This document shows positions 1 through 58,600 of a stretch of DNA of 64,000 nucleotides, one piece after another. The notes under the pieces are model-generated. The model was not told where the DNA came from. It did not search any database and saw nothing but the letters and a program-made list of their open reading frames with translations. Positions within the stretch are counted from its first letter, which is position 1. Every line of letters starts with the position of its first letter. Source of the stretch: Paraspadella gotoi (lineage: Eukaryota > Animalia > Chaetognatha); assembly GCA_051294375.1 (NCBI GenBank), contig CM119265.1, positions 11,161,818-11,225,817 of the forward strand. The letters are read 5' to 3'. The position numbers were made by a program, and so were the translations under genes.

Positions 1-764
1 TGCAACCTTGTTTATGAGCAATTTACGAGAGAGCTAATATCAGTTTATTTTTAATATATTTTTATGCCGCTCTCTGGAGGACGATATCAATATTCACTTG
101 CAAAAAAAACGTTTTTAAATTCCTACTATGGTTTCCGAGATATAGTCATAAACGTCAGCCTTGAAAAGCAAAATTTGTCAAAATATAATTTTCGAGTTTC
201 TTCTTAGATTTCTGACGCGCAAGTACTAACTATTTAAAAGAAAGAAAACGTTTTGCTGATTTCTTCCAGCATAATACATAAATGAGTAAGACGATGGGTA
301 CACCTGAAAGTGATATGTCTCTAGAAAACGGAAAATTTTTCTTTAGGTTTTATTTTGAAATTTAGGTAATGTACCAATTTGATAAATTGAGAATGAGATA
401 CTCCCCCCCTTTGCCGAAATTTTTATTTAACAAAGATTTGCAATGCGTACGGTACGCGAAGCGTAGAGTGTCCTTTTTCCAGGGATGAAATAACTCTTCT
501 ATTTTTACGTCCAATGAGCTGATATTTTAACATTAAATAGTCTCAACGTAGGTTTATTGCCCATTGGGTTAAAATTTAAATCGGACAATTCTAAACCACT
601 TAAAAATAGGCCCCCCCAAAAAAAAAATTAAAAGTTGCATACAATTGAAACGTTCTTTGAACTATTTTCCACTTCATTGATAGGGAAGCCAGGTACTCTG
701 GGAGTGAATAAACGAGACTGTGAGAGAGTCTTGATTGAAAGCTTGCAGGGACCTGCTATGTCAT

Positions 765-827
765 TATCTTGTAAGAGTGATGGAGGCCTTAAACCACCAA
801 AGCCTGTCCAAAGTCAGGGGCAAGATA
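765..827 (+). ncRNA. P5-type twister ribozyme, family A (copy 1)
   Basis: P5 TATCTTGT/GCAAGATA; GA[TGG]-AGGCCT-T^AA-ACC-AC; P4 CCTG-T[CCA]AAGT-CAGG; T1 CCA/UGG, T2 AC/GU; predicted cleavage 790|791; within a repeat (638-862) also found at 45526-45750. Confidence 0.72.
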
Positions 828-1014
828 GCTTATTTATTAAATGAATGGATAATTTTTATATTTCTGAGACGGCAAGCTCTGTAACTCGAGTAGAAATGAT
901 AATTTGAAAGCGAGTTTTTGTCTTGTTATCGAGGACTCATATGGCTACTCCCCCTTCGGTAAGCCATTGCTCTACGACCACTTTTGGGACATAGCAGTTT
1001 ATTGTAAAAGTTTA

Positions 1015-18000: not shown

Positions 18001-21000
18001 TTTTTTAAACCCAGTGGAAGATAAACTAAAGTTTTTTAGGAGTTTCCTCTACACCCTTGATTGAATATTCCCATAAATTATTTGGTTACTTCTATTGTAT
18101 CCCTTGAAGAAGATGTTGTCCCTTCCAATTCGAAGATGCATTTGGATGTTGAGCTTATGCTTGATGGAGATCAATCGAAGCTCACTCTAATACAGTTATG
18201 ACAGATCCATTTCTCAACGAAATTATGAATCTCAGTGAACATAGTCACAAGACCAAGGCTGGTTATGTCTAGGGCGACACTGAATTCACAGATGAGTCAT
18301 TGGGCGTTTTTGCATTGGAGATGGACAAGTTTCGTTCACTTGTGAATTACGATGCAGGTTATGAGACGGACGTTCCGGCAGGTTCGGTCGGTTCCGATGT
18401 CAAAGATGCGATTGATTCTCAAAGACCCTTAACCCTCTACATCTAAACCTTCTTTCATAGTCCTGAAACCCTGGATGCATCACAAGAATCTGGAGGTCCT
18501 CCCAGTTGTGATAGTGGTCCTTCAGATGTACTGGCGAGTTAACTGTCAGACCTTTTTTTGGTGATCCAGCTACCATTAAGTAAAATCTGAATCAGGATCT
18601 GAGAGAATTATAAATCCTCTTTAGAAAAGACGTCGGTAATTCTTCAGTGATGTTACAGAGAGGCTACAGACCCAGCTATTATATTATAGCTAAAAGCTAT
18701 TTGTCCTGTATATAATATTGCCTGTTAGTCTAGTTCTTACAGTAAATAACTTTATCACTGATACATCTTTTATTTATTTTATACCTCTTTTATCCATAAA
18801 ATTTTTAATGTTACAAAATACCCAGTGAAAATGGATTGATTTCTTGATTTTATGGCACATTTTTATTTTTTTTACTTTCTTTAACACATAATCTTTTCTG
18901 AGTCATGACATTGTTCAGTTTTCTTAGCAGTTCAATTAGTATATATGTGAGTGAGATTGGGAACGTTTGTAGCTTGAATGAATAATTGTACTTGCTAGCA
19001 CTATCATTGTTAAGACTCTTCTTATAGCTCGACGTGCAAGCTAATGTTGAAATCATAATCCTTCTTTATAGCTCATTGGGTTAAACCATTCTCATTTGTC
19101 TTAGAATTTTATTATTCAATATTATTTTGAGGAAAGCAAAAAAAAAAAATTAGTTACAGGATTGCATCTTTTAAATTATTATACTGCTAGTTATATATAA
19201 GCATTTCGTTTGATGATCAATTAAATGGCTATCCCCTATCTGCCTCCTCTGCTGTGTGAAGGCATGGAGCAGTCATAGGAACTTGATACGAAGAGAGCGC
19301 GTTCGCGTCATCGTTGTCGACTCCTATCTGCAGGATTTGGATGTTGACATTTGCAACCTTCCCCCTCATCGTGGTTCCAAAAAAGAGAACGAAAATGACG
19401 GATGGAGACCGTTATGAAAATTATGAGTACGAACCTGAGCGACGCAAAATTTGTCTGGAACAATTCATTGGGAAAAGTGTCCAGAAGGACGTTGATTCCA
19501 TCGCTAATTTCTCAGAGTTCCGTTTGCGGATTGCAAAAAGATCAAATACATTGACATCGCGAGCATGTATGGTTTTTGTTATAACCACTTAGAGGCCCCT
19601 TCCCTTTGTTGGATCGGGATTCCTCAATGTCCTTTTTCGGCGTTTGGGATCCCTTCCCTCAAATACCTCCATCATTTCGTCAAAAACCACTACATTCTCG
19701 ATAAAATATTTTTCCATCATAATCATCTTGCGGATTCCGATGAGAACAAATCCTTAGTTAAGCCTCCTCAAATTTGCTATGCAGCGCTGGATGCACTCGT
19801 CAGTCTGCAGACAGCGCTCAAGCTTTCAAACAAATATATTGTCCTTCTCTAAACTCTATTGTTCACGCTATGACCAATCCGCCATTGGCGATCAGGAGAA
19901 GAGCAATATTGGCGACTAAAGAAAATTGTGACGCCAGACTCAACGTCAATACAACTTATTTCAGACGCCCCAGCCCCCCCCCAAATACCCTCCTCCTGCT
20001 CTCTCTGCCCTAATCTCCCACCTCGTCCAGCCCACCTCCTTTCCTCATGTCGATATCCATCCCCCCTTATTCTCGTGAAACTTCCTTGGAGCAGCTCCAG
20101 CTCCCTGGCTCTACTTCAAACGACAAAGATCACTTAAAAAACATTTGCGTGCAATTGTGTCAATTTCTAACAGAAAAATGTAAGCGTAATCACGCTACGG
20201 CAAGGGATTTCAACGCCAACAATCGCAACGATTTTGTTTGTTCTATTCTTCGATGGCGGCTTCGGACGTGGTCGCCTTCATGCGTTGTGCCAACTTCAGT
20301 TTTTCTGTGTTCCACCTTTATTCTTTTGGACTTTTTGCGTCACCCATGGGACGCGATGCGGCATGAAGACTCATCCTTCCCTCACCTCTCTCTTGATTAA
20401 AGCTCCTGCTGGAAAGAGTAGAGTGTATGGCGACACAACAGCAATTTTGAGCCCAAATGTTACTCCCCTTCAATACCTGCCTCCACAGTCTCGTTCCAGA
20501 CTGCGGAGAGGACACCATAAGTGAGGAGGAGTGACATTTTCGATTCTCAGCGCTTTCTCATGTCCCTCTAAAGAATATTGGCGCCAAAGAAACTAATTTT
20601 CTCACATTTCGTGTCGAACGGCGCATCTTCCATTATTCTCCAGTCTTCACTCGCCGAGTATGGCATGACCAATATATTCACAAAATTAAGCATAAACTCT
20701 GTATTCACGTTTCAAAGTAAATGGATCCAAGAGTTCTTCGATTGTCAACTTTCACTAGTCTCCTTACAATGTTCTCGACGCCGCGGACACATGCATATCT
20801 TGCGGCCTTGTTCCGACGGTATGATTCATTGGCGGAATTTGTTACCAAGGGAAAATTCTGCCATCGTGCCTCCACTTCAGCGGGGAAGTCGTTCCTTCGC
20901 TGCAAGCGCTTTGTCAACGGGCGATATTTGTATCGCTTGTTTAGGAGTTTTGCGACAGGTGTTTTTGATTCGTTCCACGCTATTGAGAGAAAAAGAAGAC

Positions 21001-24000
21001 GCGAAGACTCTCTTGAAAGGTCCCAATTCAAAAACGACACTGAGCGGGGACGCTCAGATTTTATAAAGGGGAAAGTATCTGTTGGACATAAACTCTCCGT
21101 CGTGGTCCGTCGACCTTATTTACCTTTTGTAAAGTCTTTAAAAATATAAACAATCGATATTTATTTATAAACAATACAGTTCATTGTTATTTCAATGCTT
21201 TGATTAATCATGATTCTATTTCATACAGATCGCATTAATGTTAGTTGGCCATCGTCGGGGTTTTTTTATATATATATATGGTTATTGGTTTATGCGTTTC
21301 ATGTTATTTGAATAAGTGGCTAGGCGCGAGCTTACCTGAGAGATCATTGCTGTTTCTATCGTTAACCGGATGCTTACCTTTTGCTTACCCCAGTTCTTGA
21401 TTTCTAAAGACTCATTAAATCCTACGATATAGATACTCTCAGAAGGGTGAGCGACCAACGGAAAAACCCCGCTCATCATGCCCATTGGGATGGGGCATCT
21501 CACTGTTGGCTTTGGGGCTTCCGACCTCAGTGACGCCGCACCCAGTCACTGGCGCGGTTACCTAGGACGGTCTCGCTTTGCCAACGCAGAGGGAAGTCGT
21601 TAGGAGCTGTGGATGGAACACTACGCCTGGATGGTGTGTTCCCCCTCTGAGCCAATGGATTTGGCTGACGGATGGTTGGAAGCGTAGAGGCGGTGTGAAT
21701 ATACCGCCACAACAGGAAAATTTCAATTTAGAAAACGTGATTAATATTTCATTTAACCCAAACTTGAACATTTTTAGTGGAATGAAAAAGAACTTTCAAT
21801 AGCTAATAAACAATTTTTAATCTTTGTTATCAGATTATTGATTCATCTGAAAAGAGGAAAACACTGCAGTCGATTAATATATGTTAAGAAAAATATTGCC
21901 TTGCGTAGGTATTAATACAAAGAAAAAACTTATTTAGTAATTGACCGATGTAATTGAACTCGTATTTGTTTATGAATAAAGATCAACCTTTATTTATTTA
22001 ATGTGGGGTTCTAGTTGGTTGGCGACTTCGCCATGGCGATATCGCCAGGGCTTTGGCGATGTCGCCAGTCCCCCCACTGGCGACCTCGCCAGTGATAAAA
22101 GTAGCGAATATAATGAAAAGCGCAGCTAACACGGGGATGAACATCACCTACAGGCTTCTCTCCCAACCCTAAACCAAACCTCCCGTTCAACTCTGTGCCT
22201 CTCCCCTAACCCTAACCCGGGCCTGGGCCTCCCGTACATATCCGTGCCTCAACCCTAACCCTAACCGCCTTCGATGCATCAACCACGGGCCCCTCCCCCA
22301 ACCCTAAACCAAGCCTCCCGTTCAACTCCATGCCTCTCCCATAACCCTAACCCAGGCCCTTAGTAGTTAAGAGGGACGAGGCGCTTAACCCGCCTGTAAC
22401 ACGGTGTTACAACCTGATCCGAAGCTCAGGGACTGCTTATATTGAACGGTTTGTCAATAACTCATAACAATTATTACTGTCTCTTAAAAAGTAAATTTTA
22501 ATAAAAATTAAACCATAACAGTAACTTACGCGAACCTTACCTGCTTACTTCAAAATTTTTTAAACAAAATGCAATGTATACCCTGCCAGAATCATTATTA
22601 TACCAATTTGCTGTATAAAAAAAGCATTATATCAAATAATTTTAAAAAGATTAATATATCATCTAAATACTAAGAGTGAAGAGGCTGGTTTTACAGGGCG
22701 CCAAACCCGCAGCGGTGTCACCTCGTGGCGACAGCGAGACAGCATGTTTATGTAGTCCAGAGCTTTGGATCTGGCAGTAGGCCCATGCCTACAGGCGGGT
22801 TACCCGGGCCATCCCACTTTCTACATGACAACCTCAGGGCTCGAACCAGGGACGCACATTGGGATGGTGCATTAGTCCACTGAGCCACTGAGGTGCTGCG
22901 AAAGAAACAGCTTTAATCCATCTGTGGTGATAGGACCACCAGAAGAGACTATTATACAAATATTTATTCATATTTTAAAATCATTAAGAGTTTTAGTTAA
23001 AGGGGCACTTTTTGGCATAATGTATAGTTTTATGGTGACCTAAATCATCAGCGGCCAAGGAAAAAGGAGCAACCGAGTTATTGATTATCTGGATTTTACA
23101 ATAACACGGGTCACAAACAAAGCGTTTAAGACGAAAATGAAGTTTTTTAAAAAGTTGAACAATGGTAAAATCGCGAGGAGTTCTCTCAAAATATTTAAAA
23201 AATAAAATAAATAAAGTATACCAGTCATGATTCAACGACAATTTGCCATGTCGTTTTTAAATGAGCCATTGGTCCGTTAAAAGTCGCTGTCTTTAGTCCT
23301 TTGTTGCTTCGACAACAAAAGAACATACTCAAAAGCCATGGCTCGCGACCAGAATGCTCGTAACAAAGAATATATAATTTTTAATATATACATATATATA
23401 TAAGATATATATAAGATATAATTTAAAAAAGTCCATTCAAAAAAGTTCAGCGGGAAAGATGTTTCAAAATAAACGAGCCACAAAAATCCTCTTTCGCAAA
23501 CCGCGGTTGCTCGTCGCAAAGCCATGGCTTTCGGATTTGGATTTGCGGTATAGTAAATTATGCGCATTTGGGTCAAATATAAAATGTAAAACGAAACAAA
23601 AGCCTTTTGTTTTCTTCGGATTTATTTTAACGTTTAGAAAATTGATCCCGCGCTCCCCCCAAAAAAAAACACACTGGGCTTTCTTCCAGTGTATTCAAAA
23701 TAAACATTTATTGACGGCTTGAGGTCGGATTTAAAGGTTAAAAAAGTTGTTTATTTGATTACCAAAACAAGCAATCGAGCATAAATTTTTGTTTTCATTT
23801 TTTCAGTCAGGTGCTTGGAGGAGACAAAATGCTTTTTATATATAAAGTCAAAGTGATCTTTTGTTGAGTACAATTAAAGAACGAGCTGGTCTTTGGAGAG
23901 GAAGATTGGAAGGGGTTTAACCAATCTATTTAAAATGCATTTTAATACATGAAAAGGTTAAAATAAAGCTCGCGCTCCCCATTCATGTTCTTCCCAAGAA

Positions 24001-24416
24001 CCTACGCTTTCCGAATATACCCATATTGTCCCACTTTATTAAGTGCTTGACCATGGAATTTTAAAAATAATCGATCTCTAGCAAAAACCTGATCGCCCCT
24101 TCGACTCGAACGACTTGCATCCCCATTTAATGTAATCAACGACCAAGCCAGCCCGAGCGCGAGTCTCGTGTCTCGTCAGCCACGCATTCATCCTCCTCTT
24201 CCTCCTCCCAGCACCCAGGGCTCGAGGCTCACCCAGTTTTCACTTCTTCGACTGATAGGGGGAGTAAAAAAAACTAATTTAAAGTTTGTAAATTTTCTTT
24301 CTGTTTAAACTTTTTAGTTCAGAGAATTACAGCAATTTTTGTTAAAACAATTTCTTTGAACATGAAAAATTGTGAGCCTTTATCAGCGCGAAATAAATTG
24401 TAAAAAAAATTGTACT

Positions 24417-24447
<31 letters not shown>

Positions 24448-34898: not shown

Positions 34899-37800
34899 GT
34901 CCGAGATAAAATTAGCGAATAAAAAAGTTGTTATTTTACTCACTTAAAATACTTACAAAATACATAAAATTGATAAAATTATTATTCCGATAACATTGTT
35001 TAATCACATGCAATATATCTAGTAAGGCGGGCCAAAATTTAACACTTTTTATAACTTCCAGTTCTCTCAAAAAAATTTCTTTTTTCCTTCTACTACTAAA
35101 TCGATTTTCAATGTAACTTTTTGAATTAGTCCATTGGGTTGTGCACTGAAGCTTTTAAATATTTATTAATATATAACAAATGACAAAAAAAATTTAAAAA
35201 TTTGATTTTTTTAAGAACGGGTTCTTGTAGAGCTTAACAAGTTAAATGAAAGTTAGTACTATAAATTTTTTTCAAATTTTGACAATAAATTGGTTAAAAA
35301 TAGAAAAACACGTTAAAGAAATCATCATCATCATAATTGGCTAAATTTTATTTTTTCAAATTTTTCATTAATAAAACAAAAAAAATTTTAAAAGTTGTAT
35401 TAACTTTTAAAGCCCTATCAGAATCTATAAAAAAAATTGATAAGCAAAATTTTAAAAATTATTTTCATTTTCATATTATTTAATAGTCGCTTAACCATTA
35501 TTTATTTGAGAGAACTTCTAATTTTCAACCTGTTCCGGCCTAATATCTAGTAAGACGGGCCAAAATTGAACACTTTTTATAACTTCTAGTTCTCTTTAAA
35601 AATTTTTTTCTTTTTACTATTAAATCGATTTTCAATGTAACTTTTTGAATTAGTTCATTGGGTTGTTGCACTGAAGCTTTTAAATATTTATTAATATATA
35701 ATAATTATATAAAGTTTTGACGGAATTGTGCCAGTGGAAATGAGTTTAGATGGAAAAAATATAAGTCACATTTACTTGAATCTTTAATATTAATGATTAC
35801 TAATAAATGTTTTAATTAATTAATTAATTAATGTGAAAAAATGATGCAAGTTAAAAAAATGTTAAAAGCATAAAGATCGTCGCATAAAAAGAGAGAGAGA
35901 GAGAGTGAGAGAGAGAGAGAGAAGGAGACATAAAATAAAATAGAGGATATTTGTTTGTTTTGATAAAATGTAAACAAAACATATTTAATAACTGTCCTAA
36001 CCCAATTTTAAGGACATCGATGATGATAAGTTGAATATAAATTTAAAATTAATTATTACATTTTAAAATTAATTAATTAATTAATTAATCGATTAATTAA
36101 TTAATTAATTATTGTGGGCAGATCCGACATTGTTTGCTCAAACTTGTTTAATCAATATTATTGCAGTCGTTTAGTCCGCAACTCTTCAAATTCAGTGTAG
36201 ATTCATTGTAGCTCGAATTTCTTTACCATTTATTTAACTGAAGATTTTGTTCATGACTGGAAAACCAACAGAGTAACAAGATTAATTGTTTATTTCTCCC
36301 CTTCTAATTTATCCCTTTGAAGAGACAGTAATTATTGATAAGTGTTAATGACAGAACCGTTCAATATAAGCAGTCCCTGAGCTTCGGATCAGGCTGTAAC
36401 ACCAATGTTACAGGCGGGTTAAGCGCCCCGTCCCTCTTAACTGCCAGACGACCACCGGGCTAGAACCCCGGACCTTTGGGTTGGGAGGCGAATGACTTGC
36501 CTCCGGCACCAATGGCCGCTGATGAACGGTTGGTGGATTTTAGTCCACCATACATCCCCCCTCCCGTAGGGAGAAGTCTGTTGCGTCTCTTCGGTGAATT
36601 GTTGTTGTTGGTGGAAAGTTCGTCACCAAGTTGAGGCATGTCGCCTGATGTGTTGTGGGCGGAAAGTGCATCGCCAGGTTGAGGCATGTCGCCTGAAAGT
36701 GTTGTTGTTGCTGTTGTGTTCGGAAGTCGGGCTCACCAATGAAGAGACAGTAATTATTGATAAGTGTTAATGACAGAACCGTTCAATATAAGCAGTCCCT
36801 GAGCTTCGGATCAGGCTGTAACACCATGTTACAGGCGGTTAAGCGCCCCGTCCCTCTTAACTGCCAGACGACCACCGGGCTAGAACCCCGGACCTTTGGG
36901 TTGGGAGGCGAATGACTTGCCTCCGGCACCAATGGCCGCTGATGAACGGTTGGTGGATTTTAGTCCACCATACCTTACCATTTTTTAACTTCTTACCTAA
37001 AATTTTTTAACAACCAGATTGAAAAACAAATCTTTAAAAAATGTGCTTACCCATTTAACTTGACAATTTTGTTATTTATTTATTTTTTTGTGATTACCGA
37101 TGACTATAATGTATTTCTCAATGTATTAGCTCTAATACATCAATGATTACGCATTAGGGTGGAGTGATGAAAAGATTGAGCGATGGAACAATATTTTTTT
37201 GCTGCCTTTGTATATGTAATAAAAAATAATTAAACCCTTTTTCAAAAAAAATTTGCACAACAGTATCATTAATTGAATTTTCTTTATAGTAATATCCTTA
37301 TAAAATCATAAAATTTCAAAATCATATTTTTTTAATTTTAAAAACAGTTTTGGATTCGCCGGAAAAAACTGAAAAACTTTTGTAAAATATATTACATGAT
37401 ATTTTTAGGTTAAAGCTTCGAAAAATGATTAAGAAGTTTTATCATATAATAATTTTTATTACAAAGTGTAAAAAAGTAGAGAATTTGACCTTTTTTTTCC
37501 CCATTTTTGACGCTGAAGACATTGAAATTTTTAATAACATATTTTATATTTTTGATCTAACTTTTTGTGAAGAATCAGAATCTTTAATAAAAATTTAAAA
37601 AAAAATTATTCTAAAAATTTATGGTTTTATAAGAATATTACTATAAATATATTGTAATTAATGATACTGTTCCCCAAACAATATAAGCAAAATACTTTTT
37701 GTACTCCTTAATCATACTATCTCACGTCTAAATATCCTTGTTTGATCACTCAAATAAAATTCATGTTCCCCAGTGCTCCATTCTATTACGCATTGTTATG

Positions 37801-41893: not shown

Positions 41894-42029
41894 AATTCAA
41901 TTTGTGAAAAAAAAACACAAATTAATACCCTAAAATAGAGCATTTTATTAATTTATATTTAATTTTTTATCAATTTATTTGAATTTTTTAAAATAATGTT
42001 TCTCTTCTTAATTTTAGCAAATTAGATCA

Positions 42030-42149
42030 ATTAAAAACGAAAATTTTCGTGGAACAACAATAAAGTTTTTTATTAACTTTGGACATGTTTCGGCTTACAA
42101 CTCAAGCCTACATCAGCATTTGAAATCATAAATAATTTATTTCACAAAC

Positions 42150-42197
<48 letters not shown>

Positions 42198-42995
42198 TCC
42201 AACAAAGAATTTAGTAAAGGAAAGTGGTCAGATGTGAGGACAGGTGAAGATGAGGACAGGGATGAAAAGGAGGGTGAATGTGAAATTGGTGAAAAGGGAG
42301 AGAGAGAGGGAGAGAGAGACACAGAGAGAGAGAGAGAAATAATAGTATACATTAGGCAATGTACAACAAAGATAAATAGTATTATAAACTAGACATAACA
42401 AAGATTGAAATAAATTAAATTAGGCTGTTTGTGCATTTTTGAAATAGTGCAATATTGAAAATGAAATGGAAAAGGATAGTTTGTGAGGGATAGTTAAGAT
42501 AAAGAGGTAAGAGAAAAACAAGTAAAGAAAGAGCTCAAAATGAGCTGGTCCCCCCCCAGCCGGGCAAATGAGGGATATTACTGATGAATTTCGGTTCATA
42601 GGCCTGTCATAGGTTGAGAGAGTATTGTGGAGTTAGTTAGGCTGGGATCTGGTAATGATCCACCTGGAAAAATGCCCAGTGCCACTCGAATGTCTCTCTG
42701 ACCTGATAAGCCTGCCGAATGCCCTCCTCTCCCCGGACGGTGAGGCGGGCGATTGCCTGTTCTGGCCTGTTTTGGTACAGGAGATACAGACTCCTCCCCC
42801 TCCTCCTGCAGCCGTCGTTTTGGGCTCTCTCTCTCAATGTTTGTGAAATAAATTATTTGTGATTTTAAATGCTGATGAAGGCTTGAGTTGTAAGCCGAAA
42901 CATGTCCAAAGTTAATAAAAAACTTTATTGTTGTTCCTCGAAAATTTTCGTTTTTAATTAATCTCAACAAACAACAAAAGAAAGGATTAATACAA
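42030..42995 (-). mobile_element. Truncated Penelope-like insertion with inverted pLTR copies and two hammerheads
   Basis: Inverted repeat ~42030-42160 / ~42825-42960; hammerheads at 42079-42120 (minus, core mutated CTGATGT) and 42867-42910 (plus, CTGATGA); 14-bp TSD AGCAAATTAGATCA at 42016-42029 and 42996-43009. Confidence 0.8.
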
Positions 42996-44752: not shown

Positions 44753-45652
44753 GATTCAATCAACAATTTTCTCATTAATGTTAGTTTTTAGAGAGAGAGA
44801 GAGAGGAAGGAATAGAGAGAGAGACAAAAAGAGGGAGATTCCAACAAAGAATTGAGAAAGGACAGATGTGATGCCCTTACCTTCACCTGTCCTCACATCT
44901 GACCATCTAATCTAATCTATCAAAAATTACCAGTATCCTTGCCAATACCAGTTTGCTTAATTTGCTAATTTTGCATAATTGGGTCAACTTGCATAATTTA
45001 ATCCACTGGTATTATTTGGTCAACTAAAATAATTTTTTTTAACTTGCAGAATTTGGTCACTTAGATAATTGTTCAACTGGCATAATTTGGTCAACTTGCA
45101 ATCAATCAATCAATCAGAGAGAAAGAGAATTTAAAAAAAATTCAAATAAATGTATATTAGAGTGATGTGAAAATGATACAATTTTAAAAAATTAAAATTT
45201 AGCATATAAAATATGAAAATAAAAACCAATAAAAATACTTTGGTAAATTTCTTTTTTAATTGTATACATTGGTGGGCACTAGTGAACTATATTTATATAT
45301 AGTATTAAGTATATAATAGGCTAAAATTTCAAATTTCTAATTCCTAAATTTTAAGATCGGATTTGGATTCTTTGCAAAAAGTTAACATAAGAAAGTATAA
45401 TTCTTTTTTAAAAATTATTTCATTAAGTTGGTTAAAAATGTAAAAAAATATATTTAAGACGCCGATTTTCAATTTGCAGGTTTAAAAATATAATTTTTTA
45501 TAATTTTAACCTACTTGGGTCTTTTCATACAATTGAAACATTCTTTGAATATTATACCACTTCATTGATAGGGAAGACAGGTACTCTGGGAGTGAATAAA
45601 CGAGACTGTGAGAGAGTCTTGATTGAAAGCTCGCAGGGACCTGCTATGTCAT

Positions 45653-45715
45653 TATCTTGTAAGAGTGATGGAGGCCTTAAACCACCAAAGCCTGTCCAAA
45701 GTCAGGGGCAAGATA
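45653..45715 (+). ncRNA. P5-type twister ribozyme, family A (copy 2)
   Basis: Same sequence as 765-827. Confidence 0.72.
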
Positions 45716-46944
45716 GCTTATTTATTAAATGAATGGATAATTTTTATATTGGTTGTACCAATTTCATAATTTTTAAAAAAGATTTATATTTTATATTTTA
45801 TCAACTTTTAACGAGGAATCTGAATCTGTTCTCAGAATTAAAAAAAAACATTTTAAAATTTTGACATTATATAAGGGTAGTACTATATACAAAATAAGCT
45901 GACTGGGCGGGCTACTATATTTAAAAAAAAAACAAAAAAACTACAGATTAATATTTACTAATATGATAGTTTTTAAGATATAACTGCTAAATTTCGATTC
46001 CAAACTTTCACTTCACCCTAATGTATATTTTGGTTTTTTAATTTAAACTCTTTTCCACTCCTACAATTCCATCAAAAATTTATTTCCAGCTTAGTTGCAT
46101 ACTTTCCTACCTACACACAAAATTTCATCTGAATTTGTCAATCTAATTTTTAATAAACATAATAATTATGAGTAAATTTAAGTAAATATGACTTTTATTT
46201 TTTCCATTTTAACCTATTTCCACTTGCACGATTCCATTAAAACTTTATATCCAGCTCAATCACACACACACATCGTAACATCATACAAAATTTCAAGTCA
46301 ATTGCCCTATCCACTCATGAGCAATTGGCGTTCAAATAGTGAAATATTTTTTTTTTCCATTTAAACCAATTTCCACTCGCACAATTCCAGCGAAACTTCA
46401 TATCCATCTCAATCACAGTTTCCTACCAACACACAAAATTTCATACCAATCTATCCATACCATACCAATTGGAGTTTTTTGCTAGGGGGGGACAGACAGA
46501 CGGACGGACGGACGGATGGAAGGACATTATTTTTGCATATTTTATCATAATTTGAGATTCTGATATTATAATAATGATTTACCGACAATATTTTGGGGTG
46601 GGACCGACGGACCGACAAAGTGAATTATAGAGTCGGAATCTGCTGATAAGCAGTTCCGACTAAAAATAAGCATGACGATGCCAACGACGACGGTACAAAG
46701 AAGCAATAGCGAACATATTGCCCAAGACGGGTCTCAGCCGGTCTGGCGAGATAAAAATTTTATAATATGAATAATACTAATAATAATCATCACGTTTTCC
46801 CTTTAAAATCTATTAAAATTATGAAAGACGACTTTGTTGATAAATAATAGTTATTATAATAAGTAAGGTTTTGTGGATAAGGCGCTAAGTGGGCTGAAGA
46901 TGACTATCCGTAACTTCTATAACCACCTTTAGTAGCTATGGAAC

Positions 46945-47020
46945 CGGTCCTGGGCTTGGAACCAGGCTTGAGGGTTCGCCACACCCCCAAGGCGGCTTAC
47001 GGCCGTCCTCACGCTTCCCG
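46945..47020 (-). ncRNA. P5-type twister ribozyme, family D
   Basis: Minus strand: CGGG-AA-GCGT-GA[GGA]-CGGCCG-T^AA-GCC-GC-P3(CTTGGGGG/CCCTCAAG)-CCTGG-T[TCC]AAGC-CCAGG-A-CCG; T1 UCC/GGA; preceded by tRNA-like head 47030-47100 (TGGCTCATTG, GGTTCAATCCC). Confidence 0.82.
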
Positions 47021-47469
47021 CAGGGTAGGTACTGGGTTGGGATTGAACCCGGTACCTAGTGGTCATGAGCTAATGGCTTTACTCAATGAGCCACCGGGTC
47101 AGGACTGAAGGTGTCATGCTTATAGGCGGGGTGAACCTAGGCAATGCCCGACTACAGTTTTACATGAAAATTTTTTTTAATAATACTAATTTGACTTTTT
47201 ATCACCAAAAATTCCCATTTTTATATAAGATGACTTTACAATCAGCGTTAAAAATTGTTAAACTCAATTTTAAGCACATCGATGATGAGAAGCTGTATAT
47301 TAATTTTCAGCTTCATACACACAAATTTAATCATAAAAAAGGCGATCTATAATTTGGAACGCCGAAAACAACGCCGACGACGACGCCACTTATGCGCAAA
47401 AGCGTTACAAGATCGTCGCAAACGCTAAGCGATTGCGACGATAAAAATAACATAAATAACATTGGAAAT

Positions 47470-49604: not shown

Positions 49605-52600
49605 TCAAATTCCTTCTTCTTTAAGAAACCCGTGTTCTGAAGCAGGGTAAACATTTCGATCATCATTGAAATTGATATGAACGTATAGTTTATTTCGACC
49701 GAATTCATAGTCAATCCTCTCACTTTCGGGTTTCATTTGGTCGTCTTCCTTGTCGTCGCCGCTGTCATCTTCGCCGTCGGGTTCCTCCACTTCCTCCTCC
49801 TCATCCTCCTCGCTCTTCTCCCGGATCTTCCCCGTGGCGTCGGCCGTCCGCGGCACGATCTTGACGCCCTCCACCGTCAGCTCCTCGCTCTTCAAAAACT
49901 CTTCCAACGACGACTTTTTCTCAAAGTAGATGAAACCTGGAGAGAGAAGGAGTTGAGAAAGCGGAATTTCGCGAAAGGAAATAGGATTCTCGCAGATAGA
50001 CATCAATCTTGTTAGTAATATTTAAATTAGCCTCCAATTTAGTAATTAACTTTCTTTCAAATTTTGTCTCTCTTAATTCTGTAAGTTCCAAAGTTTAATA
50101 TTTCATAGATTCCCAGGAACTTGGCGCCTATTTTGTAAACATTTTGTCTAAGTAGAATAAACAAAGGAAGAGAGACGAGAAGGAGGCCGAGATTTTAGTA
50201 CATTCCATTTTTAGATCTCAAGGGAGTAAGACGCAATATTTTAACAACTGTTTGATTTACTAATACAACTTTGGCAATCTACAATTATTTCAGGTAACTT
50301 CAAAAAATAAGACTAGTCAATCATGTACCACCTAGCTCTCTATCTGTCATCTATTGAGGGTCACAGGTCACGTTACCGACATGGTGGCCAGCGTTGTTCG
50401 CTTAACGGACAGCCTCGAAGTTATCTGTACGCGCGAATGTTTGTTTTTGTCCGAGTTAATAAGGGGGTAATATAAGATTTTTTTCTTTTCCCAATAAAAC
50501 GAAATGCATTGTAAAGTGAAGAAATTTTTTTCTTAAAACGTTTAGTATATTTTTTTTGTTTTTGTTTTAGCCTCTCTGACTTACGAACATGATTTATTGT
50601 TGATAACGATGAATTTTGGGATGTTCTTACTCGAAAACCAAAACAAATTTAGTTTTGTTTATTAACCGGTAATCTTTATAATTCGACGTTTGGGTTATTC
50701 AATATTATTATTATTCAATTCGCTCGATTCCTACATTAAAGATTTCATTCGGCATAATTTTTTTACTTTCGATATTTTTAATTTACACGGTTGAAACGGA
50801 CAATGTATTTGGGTAACAAAGATAGTAAGCACGGATGGTTACAAAGCATTTTAAATTGGGTCGAATGATATAAACGAGTTGAGATAGAATTTTTCCTTCC
50901 TTTGGGAGGGAGGGAAACTGCCACCATGTCGGTAACGTGACCTGTGACCCTCAATAGATGACAGATAGAGAGCTAGGTGGTACATGATTGACTAGTCTTA
51001 TTTTTTGAAGTTACCTGAAATAATTGTAGATTGCCAAAGTTGTATTAGTAAATCAAACAGTTGTTAAAATATTGCGTCTTACTCCCTTGAGATCTAAAAA
51101 TGGAATGTACTAAAATCTCGGCCTCCCTCTTGTCTCTCTTCCTTTGTTTATTCTACTTAGACAAAATGTTTACAAAATAGGCGCCGAGTTCCTGGGAATC
51201 TATGAAATATTAAACTTTGGAACTTACAGAATTAAGAGAGACAAAATTTGAAAGAAAGTTAATTACTAAATTGGAGGATAATTAAAATATTACTAACCAA
51301 ATTTTTTTATTTCTTCTCGCGTTTATATTTTTATATTCCAGCCGAGTGAAAAGAAAAGAAAAGAATAACAGAAAAAAACAATCAAAAAACAGTGGGATGA
51401 TCACCCGCATCGGGGGTCGCGAGTCTGACGAAAAAGACTGTGCCGAACTTCTTCTCGCATGTCGTCTTGAGTTTCAGTCGCGTCATGTCGGTTGACGGAT
51501 GATCCGTCTCTTCAGTAGAAGTCAGAGAGAACCCGCCCTTTTTAAAGATCGAGTCGCCTACCGCGATCTCCCACTAGAAAAAAATGGGAAGATTTTGAAA
51601 GTTAGCTTTTTACTTATAGATAACAAGAAAATAATAATTATTTTTAGCCGGATTTGCTTACAGCAGATTCCGGCTCTATAATTCACTTTGTCGGTCCGTC
51701 TGTCGGCCCCCCTATTTTGTCGGGCATTCACTTATATCATATAAAAACATCAAATTAAAATAAATTATGCAAAAAAAATTATGTCCGTCTGTCCCACCTT
51801 AGCAAAAAACAACAATTACTCGTGATTTGATGGATGGATTGGAATGAAATTTTGTGTGTGGGTAAGAAAGTGTGTGATTGAATGATGGAATCGTCCAAGT
51901 GGAAATGAGTTAAAATAAAAAAAACAAACAATCTATTTCACTATGCTTTTTTATTTTTATATTAAATGTAAATTCAAGCTGCATTAATTAATTATTAAAA
52001 AATAAGTAATTAATTATTAACTATTTGTAATTAATTAATTTTGTGATCGAGATTGTTGTTTTGTGATTGAGAGGCGAGACAAAGTAGAAAACGATTTTGA
52101 TACGAATAAAAAAAAATAATTAAATTAATTATCTGATTAGCTGCTTACCTCTAATTATCGTGGTCAGATCCGGCATTGTTTGCTCAAACTTGTTTTAATA
52201 CAAAAGGCTTCATATTATAAATTGAAGTACTATGGCAACGGGGGGACATGTGTGATGCCTGTGATGAGGCATCTCCCGACAGCTGGCGCTCAGGGCTTTG
52301 GACCTGCAGTGACCACCCCATGTCATTGGGGTGTTTATGCCGACACCATCACACTTTAACCAGCGTGACCGTGAGGGGATTGAACCCGGAACTCACTGTT
52401 GGTGAACGAGTACTTAGCTGTCCAATCCAATGGGACGAGTTGAGTTTCACCAAGCTATACAGAAATTTAAGATTCACCACACATGCCCCCCCCAAGACAG
52501 CACACTGGGGTCCTCAAGCCCGGAGTGACTGTCTTGAGAGTAGATGGGCTCATTGCCATAGAGAGCGAGCGAGCGAGCAGTAGGGCATAGGCGTGGGATG

Positions 52601-55600
52601 CATACCCTTAAGCGACAGTATGCAGCGGTTGCGTGTTCGATAGTAGGGCTTACCACTTATGGCAATGGGGGGACATGTACATGGTGACAATTTTACAAGC
52701 GCCAGTAGAAATACGCTGTCATTTGCAAACCAGGGTTGGCATTAAAAAACCCACCCAAAAAAAAAACAGCTAAAAAAACCTAAAAAAACTCACGAAAAAG
52801 TGGGTTTTTTGGGGTTTTTTTTTATATTTTTTTTAAAATTACTTAAATTTTTTAATATGAAACATTAAATTGTTGAAGCAAAAATCTAAATCATATAAGA
52901 TCTATCATTTTTACAAAGCTTAATATATAATTTAATGAAAATGCAGGAAAATAATATATTGACGTCAGGAAAAAATCTTAACTTAATTAAACACCTTAAT
53001 ATTTTATTAACTCAAATATTGTATTCGAACATCAAAATTTATTTTTAGCCCAAAAGACAAGTTAGTTCGGCAAAAACATGTACTAAAGATGTACTTCAAT
53101 TTTTAATGTATTAGTAATTTATATAAATGTTTATGATGCATATTTATATCAAATTATTTTGAGTATTTAATTACCATTTTCTAATAAGATTAAGTTTATG
53201 CACTTTTTTCATAACAGGTTTTATTCAGAAAATATAATATTTATATTTATTACATTTTTGTTTACCATAAAAGATATTAATTAATTAATACTATTATTAA
53301 ATATTATCAGTATATTTTTATCAGTAATCACTTAAAAAGTATAAATATTTTAAATTTGTATATTAAAAAGTATTAATATGACAGTCTGCTATCTATAAAA
53401 AACCCAAAAAAACCCAGTTGCAAACCAGTGGTTATTTCATTGATTTTAAAAATTAGTTTAGTAGAAAATACTAAAACCAAATGTGTTATTGATCAGTTAA
53501 GATATTCCTTGACAATGAGTGGAGAAAGTTGGCTTTTCAAATCGGGTTTCATTTTCCAACTCACTGTTTTTAAATTCAATTTTTTGCTACTTTTAATAAA
53601 AAAATTATGTCCATTTTTGTCCATTTTGACTTTTGTCTTAAGATTTTTAAATATACTAGTCAAAAATTTACTTTATTACAATTTTTTAAACGAAAATACT
53701 TCAAAATGTCCACAAATCTAATCAAATATTCCATTTCAACGGTGCTTCTAAAAAATTCTAAAAAATTAGGGCAAAAATTTAATAGTTTTTAAGTCAACTT
53801 TTAATTTGTGAGGATTTGTGAGGTGCGTTTTATTTGAACTAAAAACTCGAATAGAAAGGAAAGAAAGAATAGAAAGGAAAGAAAGAATAGAAAGGAAAGA
53901 AAGGAAAGAAAGAAAAGAAAGAAAAGAAAGAAAAGAAAGAATAGAAAGGAATGAAAGAATAGAAAGGAAAGAAAGAATAGAAAGGAAAGAAAGAATAGAA
54001 AGGGGAAAAAAAGAAAATTAATTTATAAACAGAAAGAAAAATTCTATTGTGTGATTGTCAATTTACAGTTACAGTTTCTGAAAAAAAAGGGAAAAAAAAA
54101 GGGAAAAAAAATATTTTTCATTGTCAAAAGAATAAATATAAAACAGTAAAATAACTTATTTTCGAGTTTAATTTTTAGCAAGTGCTAAGACTGGAGTAAC
54201 ATTATTGAAGGTACTTTTGTTTTACTTTAAGCACGCATAAGCGAGCAGTTTGATCGAATGCGACCTCTCTTAACACTGACAGCATTCCCAGACAAAAGAC
54301 AAAGTGAAACTTGAATCAGACTGACGAAGTGAAGTAAAGATTAAAGTGAAATAAAAACCCGATGTTACGATAGCAAAATTATAACATGCATGAATGCGAT
54401 GCCTAATTTTACGAGTTCAATCCCAATTCAATCTTTTTTTTAATAAAAACACACACAGAGAGAGAGAGAGTGAGAGAAAAAGAAAGAAATCAAATGGCAG
54501 CAGCAGAAGCAGCAGGAGAAAAGAGAGAGCCCCTGCAGAGCCAGCTGCAGACTTAAAAGGCAGCAGCAAAAGCAGCAGGAGAAAATAGAAAAAAAGAATA
54601 AGCCCCTGCAGAGCCCGCTGCAGACTCGTTTTTTTCCCTATGATTATGAATCAGTGATAAAACGTAAACAAAACATATTTAATAACTGTCCAGACTCAAT
54701 TTTAAGCACATCGATGATGAGAAGCTGTATATAAATTTTCAGCTTCATAAACCCAAATTTAATCATAAAAAAGGCGATCTATAATTTGGAACGCCGACGA
54801 CGACGACGCCACTTATGCGCAAAAGTGTTACAATATCGTCGCAAACGCTTAGCGATTGCGACGATAAAAAATAGTGGAAAAAATGGAAAAAAAATTTTAA
54901 AATATAGCTTGCCGTTTTTTTGCCTAAACTAAAAAACGCGATTTATCTGACGAGCAATTTAATCTTTAAAAGTTGCCCTTACCATGAAAAATCGTTTTAG
55001 TTTCATCTTAATTAGGGCAGATACCATAATTAGAATGATTAAGGTAAAAGAAATTATGTCTTACCGTACTTTGAAAGCATAGAAATTCACCCAGTGAGTT
55101 CGATGTTATAAGGAGAAAATAACTATAGCCCAACTTTTTTTTAAATAAAGCGTGTTTTATATTAATCAGTGGAAACAAAAGAAATAATAGTTACATAAGT
55201 TTTAATTTTATTGTTATCCATTGTATTAATCCTTTCCGCTTCGTTGAGTTTAGAAATTTGAACAAAGTTTGAAAAATAATTTCATCAACGATTTTATTTA
55301 TGTACGGACATGTTTCGACTCTTTATTTTTCGAGTCTTCAATAAAGAGTCGAAACATGTCCGTACATAATAAAAATCGTTGATGAAATTTTTCAAACTTT
55401 GTTCAAATTTTATTGTTGAAAATACCCGAATAGAAATCACTGTCCTTGGTTTTATTAAGAGTGTCATAAGTGAATTATTTAAAATTTTAAATCTTTTTTC
55501 AAAATATATGACCTGTTTAAATTATTAAAACAAAATATTATTATTTATGTAAGTATCATGAAATAGCCTATCACAATTTGATAAAAATCATAAATTTACT

Positions 55601-58600
55601 CTCCAGCTATTGATTTTTAAAAAGATGCCTCATTTTTTAGTATCCTAATTAAATTAAAGCTGGGTCAGTTAAATTTTATACTACAGTATTCGTAGGTACG
55701 TCATTCTCTTTAGATTTGAAAGAGCTTCCAAAAAATAATAATATTATTATTTTATTTCGAATTTCTTCAGAAAACTTACTGAAAGTAAGAAAAAAATTAA
55801 ATATAAAAAAAGTGAGTTTAAAAATTAGAGACGATTTTCAAATCCATCTTCCTGCTATCATTGCTGAGGCATATCAAAGTCGATTCTGATAAAATTTGCA
55901 TATATAATTAGTTTGGGTTTTTACTATTAAATTCCTATTTAACACTGAAAAAATCTTTATGGGTTTCCAAATAACAGCGTTTTTCTACCGGCGATTGCAA
56001 AATTGTCACCATGTATGATGCCTGGGGTGTGAGGCATCTCCCGACAGCTGGCGCTCAGGGCTTTGGATCTGCAGTGACCACCCCATGTCACTGGCGTGTT
56101 TATGCCGACACCATCACACTAATCAGCGTGACCATGAGGGGAATGAACCAATCCAATGGGACGAGCTGAGTTTCACCAAGCTATACGGGAGGCGATTTTT
56201 TTGTGACCAGAACACGTTCCGAGAAAACTATTGAATTGATTTGAATGAAATTTGGTATGAACGATCCCTATGTGAATACAAATATTGAGGCGAATTTCAA
56301 TATTTGACTCCTGAGCCGAGATATGGGGCCCGTTAGGGGTCACCCATATAAATATATATATAATATATATATAATATATTATATATTAATTAGCAAAAAA
56401 ATTATTAATTTTAGTTTTAAAAAATATTTTTATGTTTAAGACATTGATGAGCCTGATTCTACAAAAAAGTTATAAAAATTAAAACAAATTTTTAGCCTTT
56501 TTTGGCCCCCAAGGGCCCTGTATCTCTCGTCAGGGGTTGAATATTAAAATTCGCCTCGATAGTTCCATTTATATCGTCATTACAACAATGTAAAATTTCA
56601 TGAAATTCTAACGGGTAGTTTGGTGGGAACAGATTCTGGTCACAAAAAAGGGGTACCTCATTTTATAATATGAAGCCTTCTGTATATCACAACCTTGAGG
56701 GTGCACTTTCCATCCCTGATGGAAAAAGAGTTTGGTCTGACGATGAAAGTCTTCAATGATTGTTTGTCAGCAAAGTGAAGATAAGTTCTTGGCTCGCGCC
56801 GGCGCGGGCCTTTGGGAAAGTATTCCACATTGATGATGTTTTCTTGACGGAGAAATATTCTGTAAATGAGAAAAATCTTAACGACAAAATTAGCGCCAAG
56901 GAATATCGTCCAGGACATGATACATTTAATTAGCATCAAATACAGAAGGCTTCATATTATAAAATGAGGAACCCCTTTTTTGTGACCAGAACTCGTTCCT
57001 AGAAAACTACTGGACCAAATTTATTGAAATTTGGAATGAACGATCCCTATGTGAATACTAATATAACTATCGAGGCGAATTTCAATATTTGACCGCTGAG
57101 CCGAGATATGGGCCCCCCGGGGGTCACCCATGGGGGTAAAAAAATGGTCAAAAATTTTTTTTAAATTTTTTTTATTATTTTTGTTTTGAACAGTTGGACA
57201 GACGTTTACTCTTCCACAAAAACATATTTATTACCTCAGAAATATTAATTTACCTTAATTTTTAGCTTCATGAACATCAGCAGTTAAAGTCAGATTTGGA
57301 ATAATTTGGGAAAATTTGAAGTAAAACGATGAACCATGCATCTTCAACCATGCTTAATTATTACAAATTTATCAATTTCAGTTCTAAAATGTTTTTTTCT
57401 TATGTTTAAAACGTCATTGCACCTGATGCTACTAAAAAATTTTGAAAAATAAAATAAAAATTTTTAGCATTTTTTGGCCCCCAAGGGGTCCACCCCCAGG
57501 GCCCTGTATCTCTTGTCAGGGGTTGAATATCAAAATTCGCCTTGGTAGTTCCATTTATTTAGTCATTAGCACTCTAAATGTTAAATTTCATTAAATTCGA
57601 TTGGGTAGTTTGGTGGGAACAGATTCTGGTCACAAAAAAGGGGTACCACATTTTATAATATGAAGCCATCTGTAATCTGTATGCTTTCCAAGCGCGATTC
57701 ATCTATTCTCACTTTTGCAATTCCTCCAAGGTAACGTCGTCCGGAAACCCGCTTAGCTGAAGAGGCCAACTCTTGAACTTTTTTGTCAGTGTGTAGGAAA
57801 GGCAGGCGGTGCCCAAGGTGATCCGTGGCTTCTCAGCCAAAACTTTACGGCCGACCTGATAATCCATCCAAACAAATGCCACCCGGTTTCGCATCCACGT
57901 CACCTGAAAAAAAAATTAGAAAATGCCAGTTCTACACGGATTTCAAATCGGAGTTTAATGAAAAGATGTTATTGCTCACTCAATATGGTTGATACTTAAT
58001 CATTTCATTAGTTAGAAAATTCCCTGATGTTTATGTTTCTAAATAACAAATTGAGAATAATTGGTTCGTTTGTCTTCCAGCAGCTTTTTTTGCTGCATTT
58101 TTCCCTCTTATTTGATAATTCAAATTCATTGTGAAAAAAATTGAGACGAATAATTTCTTTTATATTCATTTGGGGATGTGCATCGTTTCTAAAACTATTT
58201 AGTAATTTTAAATGATATTGGTACCGATCGATAGGAAATTCAAAATATTATCTACATACAAAATTTCATCAAAATCGGATAATCCGTTCAAAAGTTATGG
58301 CAAAAAAACAATCTCGAAAATCGCGCTTCAAATCGATCAACTTTCACTTAAAATCGAACTCGTTTTGATCCAATAAGGATTTGAACTACGCGTTAGACTA
58401 AGCTTTAAATCGGTAATCGAGATTAGGCGCAATCCGGGCCTCGTAAGAAGTAATTGAAGAAGCGAAACAAGGAAAAGAGGTAATCATTAGAAAGGTAAAT
58501 GAATAAAATAATAAAATTATAACAAATATGTAGATAAATCATAAGAGAACAAAACAAGTTATCAATGAAAAGTATAGCGAGTGATTCGCCAGGAAAATTA

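What the first reader, a model, noticed from the sequence alone, without database searches (positions are those of the whole stretch)
22803..22808. Twister P1 replaced by a loopless palindrome in every family: candidate dimer-activated minimal twister
Seen: the segment between GA[NNN] and U^AA is AGGCCU (A), GGCGCU (B, with G-U), CCCGGG (C), CGGCCG (D), (U)CCUAGG (E) and UGUCGGCA (F, with G-U). The sequences all differ, yet each is self-complementary up to its centre, leaving no room for a hairpin loop. Established: minimal hammerheads of Penelope elements and metazoan retrozymes have a palindromic stem III and cleave efficiently as dimers. Inference: two twisters in one tandem transcript could form P1 with each other and cleave, while a single twister in an excised or circular monomer stays largely inactive. 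I know of no description of this for twisters. Alternative: P1 is partly dispensable in engineered mini-twisters, so monomers could be active.
Basis: partly seen in the sequence, partly recalled or inferred. Interest (0 to 1): 0.93.

Follow-up and report, generated by a model that had tools for sequence, protein, structure and literature searches.

The report
Palindrome-linked twister ribozymes in mini-retrotransposons
Several families of tiny gene-less jumping elements in this genome carry a twister-type RNA fold, predicted to cut itself, in their end repeats, and one of its helices is shrunk to a short palindrome that likely pairs the two end-repeat copies of one transcript so that both are cut together to release a circle-ready RNA.

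Summary
Ten twister folds of six families lie in the window, all in the type-P5 order, with covarying pseudoknots. All six P1 linkers have a self-complementary core of four bases (five different cores), whereas 34 of 36 phage type-P5 matches have a normal P1 hairpin. Corrections: the focal CCCGGG is private to this copy (over 99% of public contig depth reads ACCGGG, so only CCGG is palindromic), and 36370-36864 is not a tandem array but LTR-internal-LTR with primer site and polypurine tract. Families B, C, D, F (E less clearly) are tRNA-promoter LTRs of Helenus-like mini-retrotransposons; A is not. Best reading: an animal counterpart of plant LTR retrozymes that uses a twister, whose palindrome likely pairs the 5' and 3' LTR copies. 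Strict dimer dependence is uncertain (about 45%), since P1 is dispensable in tested twisters. Cleavage, transcripts and circles are not shown. I found no paper on it in eight searches; this scan noted a palindrome-armed twister once before, in Naiad elements of another genome.

The parts
22803..22808 (-). Focal P1 linker of family C: CCCGGG in this copy, ACCGGG in the family majority; palindromic core CCGG (22804-22807); predicted cut between 22802 and 22801
22758..22819 (-). Twister fold C (type-P5 order), all pairings of T1, T2, P2, P4 intact
22677..22943 (-). Solo LTR of family C, 267 nt, ends in CA, starts TC rather than TG, flanked by CTCT on both sides; A box and B box (22837-22847) upstream of the twister; no run of four T
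   Evidence: loose ends at 22677
36318..36974 (-). Complete family-B mini LTR retrotransposon, 657 nt, non-coding, no run of four T on the sense strand
36740..36974 (-). 5' LTR of B with twister B3 (linker 36842-36847; one C of P2 missing in this assembly); 234 of 237 positions identical to the 3' LTR
36555..36739 (-). Internal region of B, 185 nt: primer-binding site 36726-36738 (tRNA-Trp-like) and polypurine tract 36555-36565
36318..36554 (-). 3' LTR of B, TG...CA, 237 nt: tRNA-like part with B box 36457-36467, twister B2 36377-36438 (intact; linker 36422-36427; predicted cut after 36421, 420 nt from the cut in the 5' LTR)
22365..22485 (+). 5'-truncated B LTR with decayed twister B1 (T1 mismatch, conserved C-G pair lost; linker 22380-22385 intact)
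46872..47156 (-). Solo LTR of family D, 285 nt, TGT...ACA, 4-bp target duplication AAAC, B box 47039-47049, twister 46950-47016 (linker 47000-47005)
21080..21714 (-). Family E element, 635 nt, TGTTG...CAACA ends, A box, degenerate B box, no target duplication, T runs downstream; twister about 21514-21578 (linker 21561-21567)
52233..52680 (-). Family F element: remnant of 5' LTR (to 52660), internal region 52484-52659 with primer site 52643-52655 and polypurine tract 52484-52492, 3' LTR 52233-52483 (TG...CA) with twister F2 (T2 mismatch; linker 52338-52345)
56010..56186 (-). Truncated F LTR with twister F1 56056-56121 (P4 mismatch; linker 56103-56110)
635..862 (+). Family A copy 1, 228 nt, twister 773-818 without P3, T2 is AC/GU (linker 784-789); no LTR ends, no B box
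45523..45750 (+). Family A copy 2, 97% identical to copy 1, twister 45661-45706 (linker 45672-45677)

Best explanation
These are gene-less LTR mini-retrotransposons whose LTRs hold tRNA-type promoter boxes followed by a type-P5 twister fold with P1 shrunk to a palindromic linker, and the linker likely pairs the 5'-LTR and 3'-LTR copies of one transcript so that both are cut together, which would release a unit-length RNA that is predicted to be closed into a circle. Steps: (1, shown) LTR, primer site, polypurine tract, B box and twister anatomy. (2, inferred) RNA polymerase III starts in the 5' LTR and reads through the whole element, which has no T4 stop (B, F). (3, inferred) A lone twister is weak because its P1 is one pair closing a tetraloop; two copies form a 4-8 bp duplex and a strand-swapped double ribozyme, in which one active site is made of the left half of the 3' LTR and the right half of the 5' LTR. 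(4, inferred) Two cuts give a 420-nt RNA (B) with no terminal repeat, its ends already clamped by the P5 helix; a host ligase would close it. (5, inferred from plant retrozymes) A tRNA-Trp-like primer and a Gypsy-type reverse transcriptase copy the circle back to LTR-internal-LTR. The circle and solo-LTR transcripts hold one twister and would mostly stay uncut. My odds by step: LTR element with selected twister 0.9; cut and circle 0.7; palindrome used for pairing between copies 0.65; monomer much slower than dimer 0.45.
For: Twister nucleotides GA, UAA, AAG kept in 10 of 10 copies; T1 occurs as UGG/CCA, CGG/CCG, GGA/UCC, CCG/CGG and T2 as GC/GC and AC/GU. Central linker pair complementary in 6 of 6 families, three pair types; self-duplex -8.1 to -11.5 kcal/mol against +2.9 to +5.6 for the monomer hairpin. 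Control: 34 of 36 phage matches have a 15-26 nt P1 hairpin of -8 to -23 kcal/mol; the other 2 are tandem type-P1 folds. No majority change at B's linker among the 40 of 115 differences shown; none at 4% or more in C's CCGG, 2 rows hidden. LTR ends: loose ends pile up at 36317/8, 36552, 36740, 36972 in 3 of 4 runs. B box 45-50 nt before the cut in B, C, D, F. B primer site matches the tRNA-Trp site of Helenus-2_SyJa at 13 of 14 bases. 22 pairs with p>0.5 join the ends of the predicted 420-nt RNA; circular folds z -2.7 (B) and -4.2 (F). Precedent: axolotl hammerhead with one pair and a palindromic tetraloop, much better as a dimer (PMC7229834); circle model of plant LTR retrozymes (PMC4918200). 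Weak: solo copies C and E lie in sense inside a 15-kb intron of a GCP3 gene, easier to tolerate if monomers are slow.
Against: P1 is dispensable in an engineered twister and P1 defects did not lower cleavage among natural type-P1 twisters; truncated twisters of RTE elements are reported active (PMC7761336); against that, PMC8501958 calls P1-less cleavage inefficient. Family C's majority linker has an A.G outer pair, so the palindrome is only four bases there. The statistic shrinks to p about 0.02 if G+C richness is taken as given, and the families share an ancestor. Nested folding of the full B transcript gives the linker-linker pair p=0.0001 (the program cannot model pseudoknots or kissing pairs). 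In the predicted B circle the T1 strand pairs with P2/T2, an off state that needs no dimer rule. Family A has the palindrome but no LTR signs. Rfam scores only A, below threshold (25.8 vs 37.6 bits). B's target duplication AAGG needs the loss of the first TG; E has none.
Confidence: 0.5

Rival explanations
1. The twisters cut well as monomers; the palindrome is selected for another pairing job, such as dimerising the RNA for packaging by the helper retrotransposon (as palindromic loops do in retroviruses; recalled) or holding two cut ends together for ligation.
For: P1 dispensable. In the predicted B circle the linker is displayed unpaired in an 8-nt hairpin loop, free for a kissing pair. The circle has its own predicted off fold, as plant retrozymes do.
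Against: The palindrome sits exactly at P1 in 6 of 6 families, also in A, which lacks LTR signs; a packaging signal need not. An active monomer would cut the promoter off each 5' LTR transcript at once and re-open circles.
Confidence: 0.28
2. The linker is just a minimal G+C-rich tetraloop on a dispensable P1; self-complementarity is inheritance plus chance, and the elements are monomer-cutting LTR retrozymes.
For: p only about 0.02 when each 4-mer's letters are permuted; families share architecture and so ancestry; outer pair broken in the C majority.
Against: Five different cores (GGCC, GCGC, CCGG, CUAG, UCGG), each change needing two or more matched substitutions; none is a UUCG or GNRA loop, which a monomer would favour (recalled).
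Confidence: 0.12
3. The fold no longer cuts; it is a structural or binding element of ordinary Helenus-type TRIMs, which transpose through a linear RNA with terminal repeats.
For: Cleavage untested; 5 of 10 copies (B1, B3, E, F1, F2) have a defect in a core pairing; published Helenus work without a ribozyme.
Against: Catalytic G and A positions and both pseudoknots are kept with covariation across six divergent families; defects differ per copy, as neutral decay gives.
Confidence: 0.1

Closest known systems
Plant LTR retrozymes (Cervera 2016, PMC4918200; passages read)
   Same: Non-coding, two LTRs each with a self-cleaving ribozyme, PBS, PPT, 4-bp target duplication, solo LTRs; two cuts would give a unit RNA with no R repeat.
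   Different: Twister instead of type III hammerhead; likely animal host; shorter (420-nt unit against about 700); tRNA-type promoter boxes in the LTR; palindromic minimal P1. Circles are shown for plants, not here.
Helenus / TRIMp3 (Kojima 2024, PMC10886601; main text parts 1-4 of 6, supplement parts 1 and 5-9 of 11)
   Same: TRIM under 1 kb, tRNA-like A/B boxes in the LTR, tRNA-type PBS (Trp, as in Helenus-2_SyJa), PPT, 4-bp duplications, many solo LTRs.
   Different: A twister follows the tRNA part; the paper's main text never mentions twister or self-cleavage and I saw no twister by eye in the animal consensus sequences; B, C, D, F LTRs have no T4 run.
Dimer-acting minimal hammerheads of amphibian retrozymes and Penelope elements (PMC7229834, PMC6765202; passages)
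   Same: One pair closing a palindromic tetraloop at a ribozyme helix; two ribozyme copies in one transcript.
   Different: Other ribozyme class; helix III is needed for the hammerhead core, while twister P1 is dispensable; those elements are tandem or pseudo-LTR, with no PBS or PPT.
Type-P5 twister ribozyme (Rfam RF02684)
   Same: Order of strands, GA and UAA, T1, T2, P2, P4, closing P5 helix.
   Different: P1 is 6-8 nt against 15-26 nt in phage matches; P2 is three pairs with a bulge in A-D; below the Rfam threshold.
Schistosoma T-variant twisters of Perere-3 (PMC8501958; passages)
   Same: Twister with a weak or variable P1 in an animal retrotransposon.
   Different: Type P1, at the 5' end of an autonomous non-LTR element, P1 completed by the insertion site; no dimer or palindrome mentioned (0 occurrences).

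Membership tests
Type-P5 twister | Conserved GA and U-AA at the active site, AAG in L4 | tested here: met
   10 of 10 copies
Type-P5 twister | Pseudoknots T1 and T2, stems P2 and P4 | tested here: met
   Covary across families; 5 of 10 copies without a core defect; P2 bulged in A-D
Type-P5 twister | Termini in a P5 helix | tested here: met
   A flanking duplex of 6-9 pairs is found next to the core in A, B, C, E, F; D was misparsed in that call and is not counted
Type-P5 twister | Intramolecular P1 stem of two or more pairs | tested here: not met
   One pair in A, B, D, E, none in the C majority, two in F; so filed as a variant
Type-P5 twister | Rfam RF02684 gathering score | tested here: not met
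   Only A1, A2, at 25.8 of 37.6 bits
Type-P5 twister | Site-specific self-cleavage | not testable with these tools
   Needs an in vitro assay or raw RNA reads
Helenus (TRIMp3) | Two LTRs, under 1 kb, non-coding, PBS and PPT | tested here: met
   B complete (657 nt); F has PBS, PPT, one whole LTR and a remnant
Helenus (TRIMp3) | tRNA-like sequence with A and B boxes in the LTR | tested here: met
   B box in B, C, D, F; A box found in C and E, degenerate in B, D, F; neither in A; ARAGORN calls no tRNA
Helenus (TRIMp3) | 4-bp target duplication (animals) | tested here: inconclusive
   Clean for D (AAAC); C has CTCT but no TG start; B has AAGG only if TG was lost; none for E
Helenus (TRIMp3) | Transcription by RNA polymerase III | not testable with these tools
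   Also untested in the paper
LTR retrozyme | Ribozyme in each LTR, PBS, PPT, non-coding | tested here: met
   Element B
LTR retrozyme | Type III hammerhead | tested here: not met
   Twister instead; a hammerhead-core scan of the window gave 1 weak AT-rich match outside the elements; works like, not a member
LTR retrozyme | Circular and linear unit RNAs accumulate | not testable with these tools
   Only assembled contigs were available
Metazoan non-LTR retrozyme | Tandem monomers without LTR, PBS, PPT; type I hammerhead | tested here: not met
   B is LTR-internal-LTR with PBS and PPT; A undecided

The most novel reading that the evidence does not exclude
The first natural dimer-gated twister: a strand-swapped double ribozyme made from the two LTRs of an animal, polymerase-III-driven LTR retrozyme, which cuts only once the whole element has been transcribed and leaves the two ends of the unit RNA pre-assembled for circularisation. 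With the hammerhead cases it would show that retroelements evolved the same two-copy switch on two unrelated ribozyme folds.
Probability: 0.4. Interest if true: 0.88.

Novelty: new variant of a known kind. Interest (0 to 1): 0.74.

Why it matters
LTR retrozymes are described mainly from plants and with hammerheads, and animal retrozymes are described as lacking LTR, PBS and PPT. Twister-bearing, tRNA-promoter LTR elements would join two lines of work (retrozymes and Helenus) and give eukaryotic type-P5 twisters a job. The palindromic linker poses a cheap, sharp test of how a ribozyme-bearing element avoids cutting itself at the wrong time, and of why P1 is conserved although dispensable in vitro. 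A twister that needs a partner copy would also be a useful AND-type part for circular-RNA production.

Tried and rejected
No assembly is held for this window, so no genome-wide count of linkers was possible. Metagenome pattern scan: 10 matches, none with a twister fold or Rfam hit, taken as chance. Viral scans with the B/C-type pattern: 3 matches, one ordinary P5-like with a long P1 (L047), two chance; short-P1 pattern: 2 matches with no Rfam hit. Sequencing runs: no RNA holder listed; run X9 is only guessed to be RNA and contigs cannot show ends or circles. The absence of rows at B1's linker was not used, because the expected majority difference at 22379 beside it was not listed either. The first descriptor script had an index error; one search picked the wrong L4 for D and no P4 for F1, so searches are used for these. 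The MAFFT alignment is out of register at F and was used only for a sequence model. The shuffle null gave 3 linkers in all, 1 of length 6-8, and that one was self-complementary: too few to use. Pfam on 22 of the window's ORFs found only GCP domains, no helper retrotransposon. Readings as SINE or tandem non-LTR retrozyme were dropped once LTR ends, PBS and PPT were seen. Roth 2014 and Lunse 2017 are not held; their supplements, and those of PMC11662667, which I did not open, may list such short-P1 twisters.

Full report
Observation. The focal six bases, 22803-22808, read CCCGGG on the minus strand between GA-UGG and UAA of a twister fold. Descriptor and motif scans found ten such folds in six families, and a sequence model built from them found these ten and nothing else above 4 bits. 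A strict descriptor recovers 6 of the 10 against 0.03 hits per shuffled window. Rfam sees only the two A copies, as Twister-P5 at 25.8 bits, below its 37.6 threshold. Strand order is type P5: P2 3' strand, GA, T1, linker, UAA, P2, T2, optional P3, P4, L4, with a flanking P5 duplex. T1 occurs in four complementary versions and T2 in two, which is strong evidence that the fold is under selection. Five copies (A1, A2, B2, C, D) have no core defect; five have one or two.

The linker. Its central four bases are GGCC (A, D), GCGC (B), CCGG (C), CUAG (E) and UCGG within GUCGGC (F). The two middle bases are complementary in all six and occur as G-C, C-G and U-A; adjacent bases cannot pair within one strand, so this points to pairing between two RNAs. 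Among 1883 LTR 4-mers 5.7% are palindromes; the joint chance is about 3e-7 for independent families, 2e-4 for three independent changes after a palindromic ancestor, 0.002-0.016 on an all-G+C background, and 0.02 given each 4-mer's letters. Self-duplexes are -8.1 to -11.5 kcal/mol; the monomer hairpin is +2.9 to +5.6. As a control, 34 of 36 phage matches to the Rfam-type pattern have a 15-26 nt P1 hairpin; the two exceptions are junctions of tandem type-P1 folds (17 of the 36 were scanned against Rfam, 16 matched Twister-P5 and 15 of these passed the threshold).

A correction at the focal site. Contigs of three public runs laid on 22350-22870 show only three listed differences inside family C (22704, 22749, 22808), each in over 99% of depth, with 2 rows hidden. 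The window copy thus carries private changes, and the family linker is ACCGGG: a four-base palindrome with an A.G outer pair, still -8.1 kcal/mol as a duplex. For B, none of the 40 shown of 115 differences lies in either linker, while a 99% difference elsewhere (36593) is shown, so GGCGCU is the family state. A and F have two identical copies each; D and E are unchecked.

What the elements are. The two B twisters are not tandem monomers. 36318-36974 is a 237-nt TG...CA LTR, a 185-nt internal region with a primer site and a polypurine tract, and a second LTR, 234 of 237 identical. Contig alignments break off at 36317/8, 36552, 36740 and 36972 into unrelated AT-rich flanks in runs X2, X5 and X9 (X10 laid 2 contigs), as for a dispersed LTR family with many insertion sites. 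F2 has the same layout with a truncated 5' LTR; D is a solo LTR with a 4-bp duplication, C a solo LTR with CTCT on both sides, E a 635-nt LTR-like unit without duplication. A B box lies 45-50 nt before the predicted cut in B, C, D and F, and B folds a tRNA-like domain there. This matches Helenus, TRIMs with tRNA-derived LTRs (PMC10886601); B's primer site matches the tRNA-Trp site given there at 13 of 14 bases. Family A has no LTR ends and no boxes. The host has a GCP3 gene with long introns whose exons match vertebrate GCP3; an animal is inferred, not shown.

Mechanism (inferred). B and F have no T4 run, so a polymerase III transcript would run through both LTRs. Cuts at both twisters give a 420-nt RNA with no terminal repeat, the situation that plant retrozymes solve by circularising (PMC4918200). 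The ends of this RNA are predicted to be joined by 22 pairs including P5. If linkers of two copies pair, geometry demands strand exchange: the G and T1 strand of one copy meet the U-AA of the other. One of the two sites is then exactly the fold of the future circle junction. A circle, or a solo-LTR transcript, has one twister and would stay uncut. The axolotl hammerhead, with one pair and a palindromic tetraloop, behaves so (PMC7229834). Against a strict rule: P1 can be deleted with near wild-type rate (PMC5408937), P1 defects did not matter in a screen that covered type-P1 forms only (PMC11662667), the B circle has a predicted off fold of its own, and nested folding does not predict the linker-linker pair. 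I give 0.65 to functional pairing between copies and 0.45 to marked dimer dependence.

Literature. Eight full-text searches listed no paper on dimer-acting twisters or twisters in LTRs. Seen: PMC10886601 main text parts 1-4 of 6, supplement parts 1 and 5-9 of 11 by eye, parts 2-4 by term search only; passages of PMC6765202, PMC10085705, PMC7761336, PMC7229834, PMC11662667, PMC5408937, PMC8501958, PMC4918200, PMC8557442, PMC13725137, PMC11620745 and bioRxiv 10.64898/2026.07.22.740005; listing only for PMC9695139, which reports a promoter in a plant retrozyme LTR. Roth 2014, Kosutic 2015 and Lunse 2017 were seen only as cited. Subscription journals and Repbase were not searchable. The promoter-box consensus used and the remarks on retroviral dimer loops and stable tetraloops are recalled.

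Verdict. A real and selected feature, a new variant that joins twister ribozymes, Helenus-like TRIMs and the retrozyme life cycle. The dimer switch is a good, testable hypothesis rather than a finding, and the focal copy overstates the palindrome of its family. Interest 0.74.

Noticed in passing
PMC10886601 supplement, Helenus-2_SyJa-LTR and Helenus-2_SyUm-LTR: By eye these wasp Helenus LTRs carry a type III hammerhead-like motif right after the tRNA part and use a tRNA-Trp primer site like family B; the paper does not remark on it. They would be hammerhead counterparts of the elements here.
   Followed up: partly
L036:129-228 (-) and L042:113-212 (+): Phage contigs with two twister folds head to tail, joined by six bases; Rfam scores each as weak type P1 (37-42 bits, below threshold).
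   Followed up: partly
window 13508-28817: A 15-kb intron of the minus-strand GCP3 gene holds twister copies C and E in sense and B1 in antisense.
   Followed up: partly
window 15389-15782 (-): Second copy of the E element, 96% identical, that lacks the 5' part with the twister.
   Followed up: partly
window 22140-22360: Degenerate repeats rich in CCCTAA directly abut the truncated B1 LTR.
   Followed up: no
window 635-862 and 45523-45750: Family A copies share both ends yet have no LTR ends, promoter boxes or target duplication; the host element is unexplained.
   Followed up: partly
window 49994-50388 and 50920-51314; 42024-42163 and 42825-42964: Long inverted repeats (97% and 96%), probably DNA-transposon ends.
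   Followed up: no
window 46950-46970 and 52295-52305 (-): The twister's own P4/L4 sequence resembles a polymerase III B box within one mismatch in D and F.
   Followed up: no
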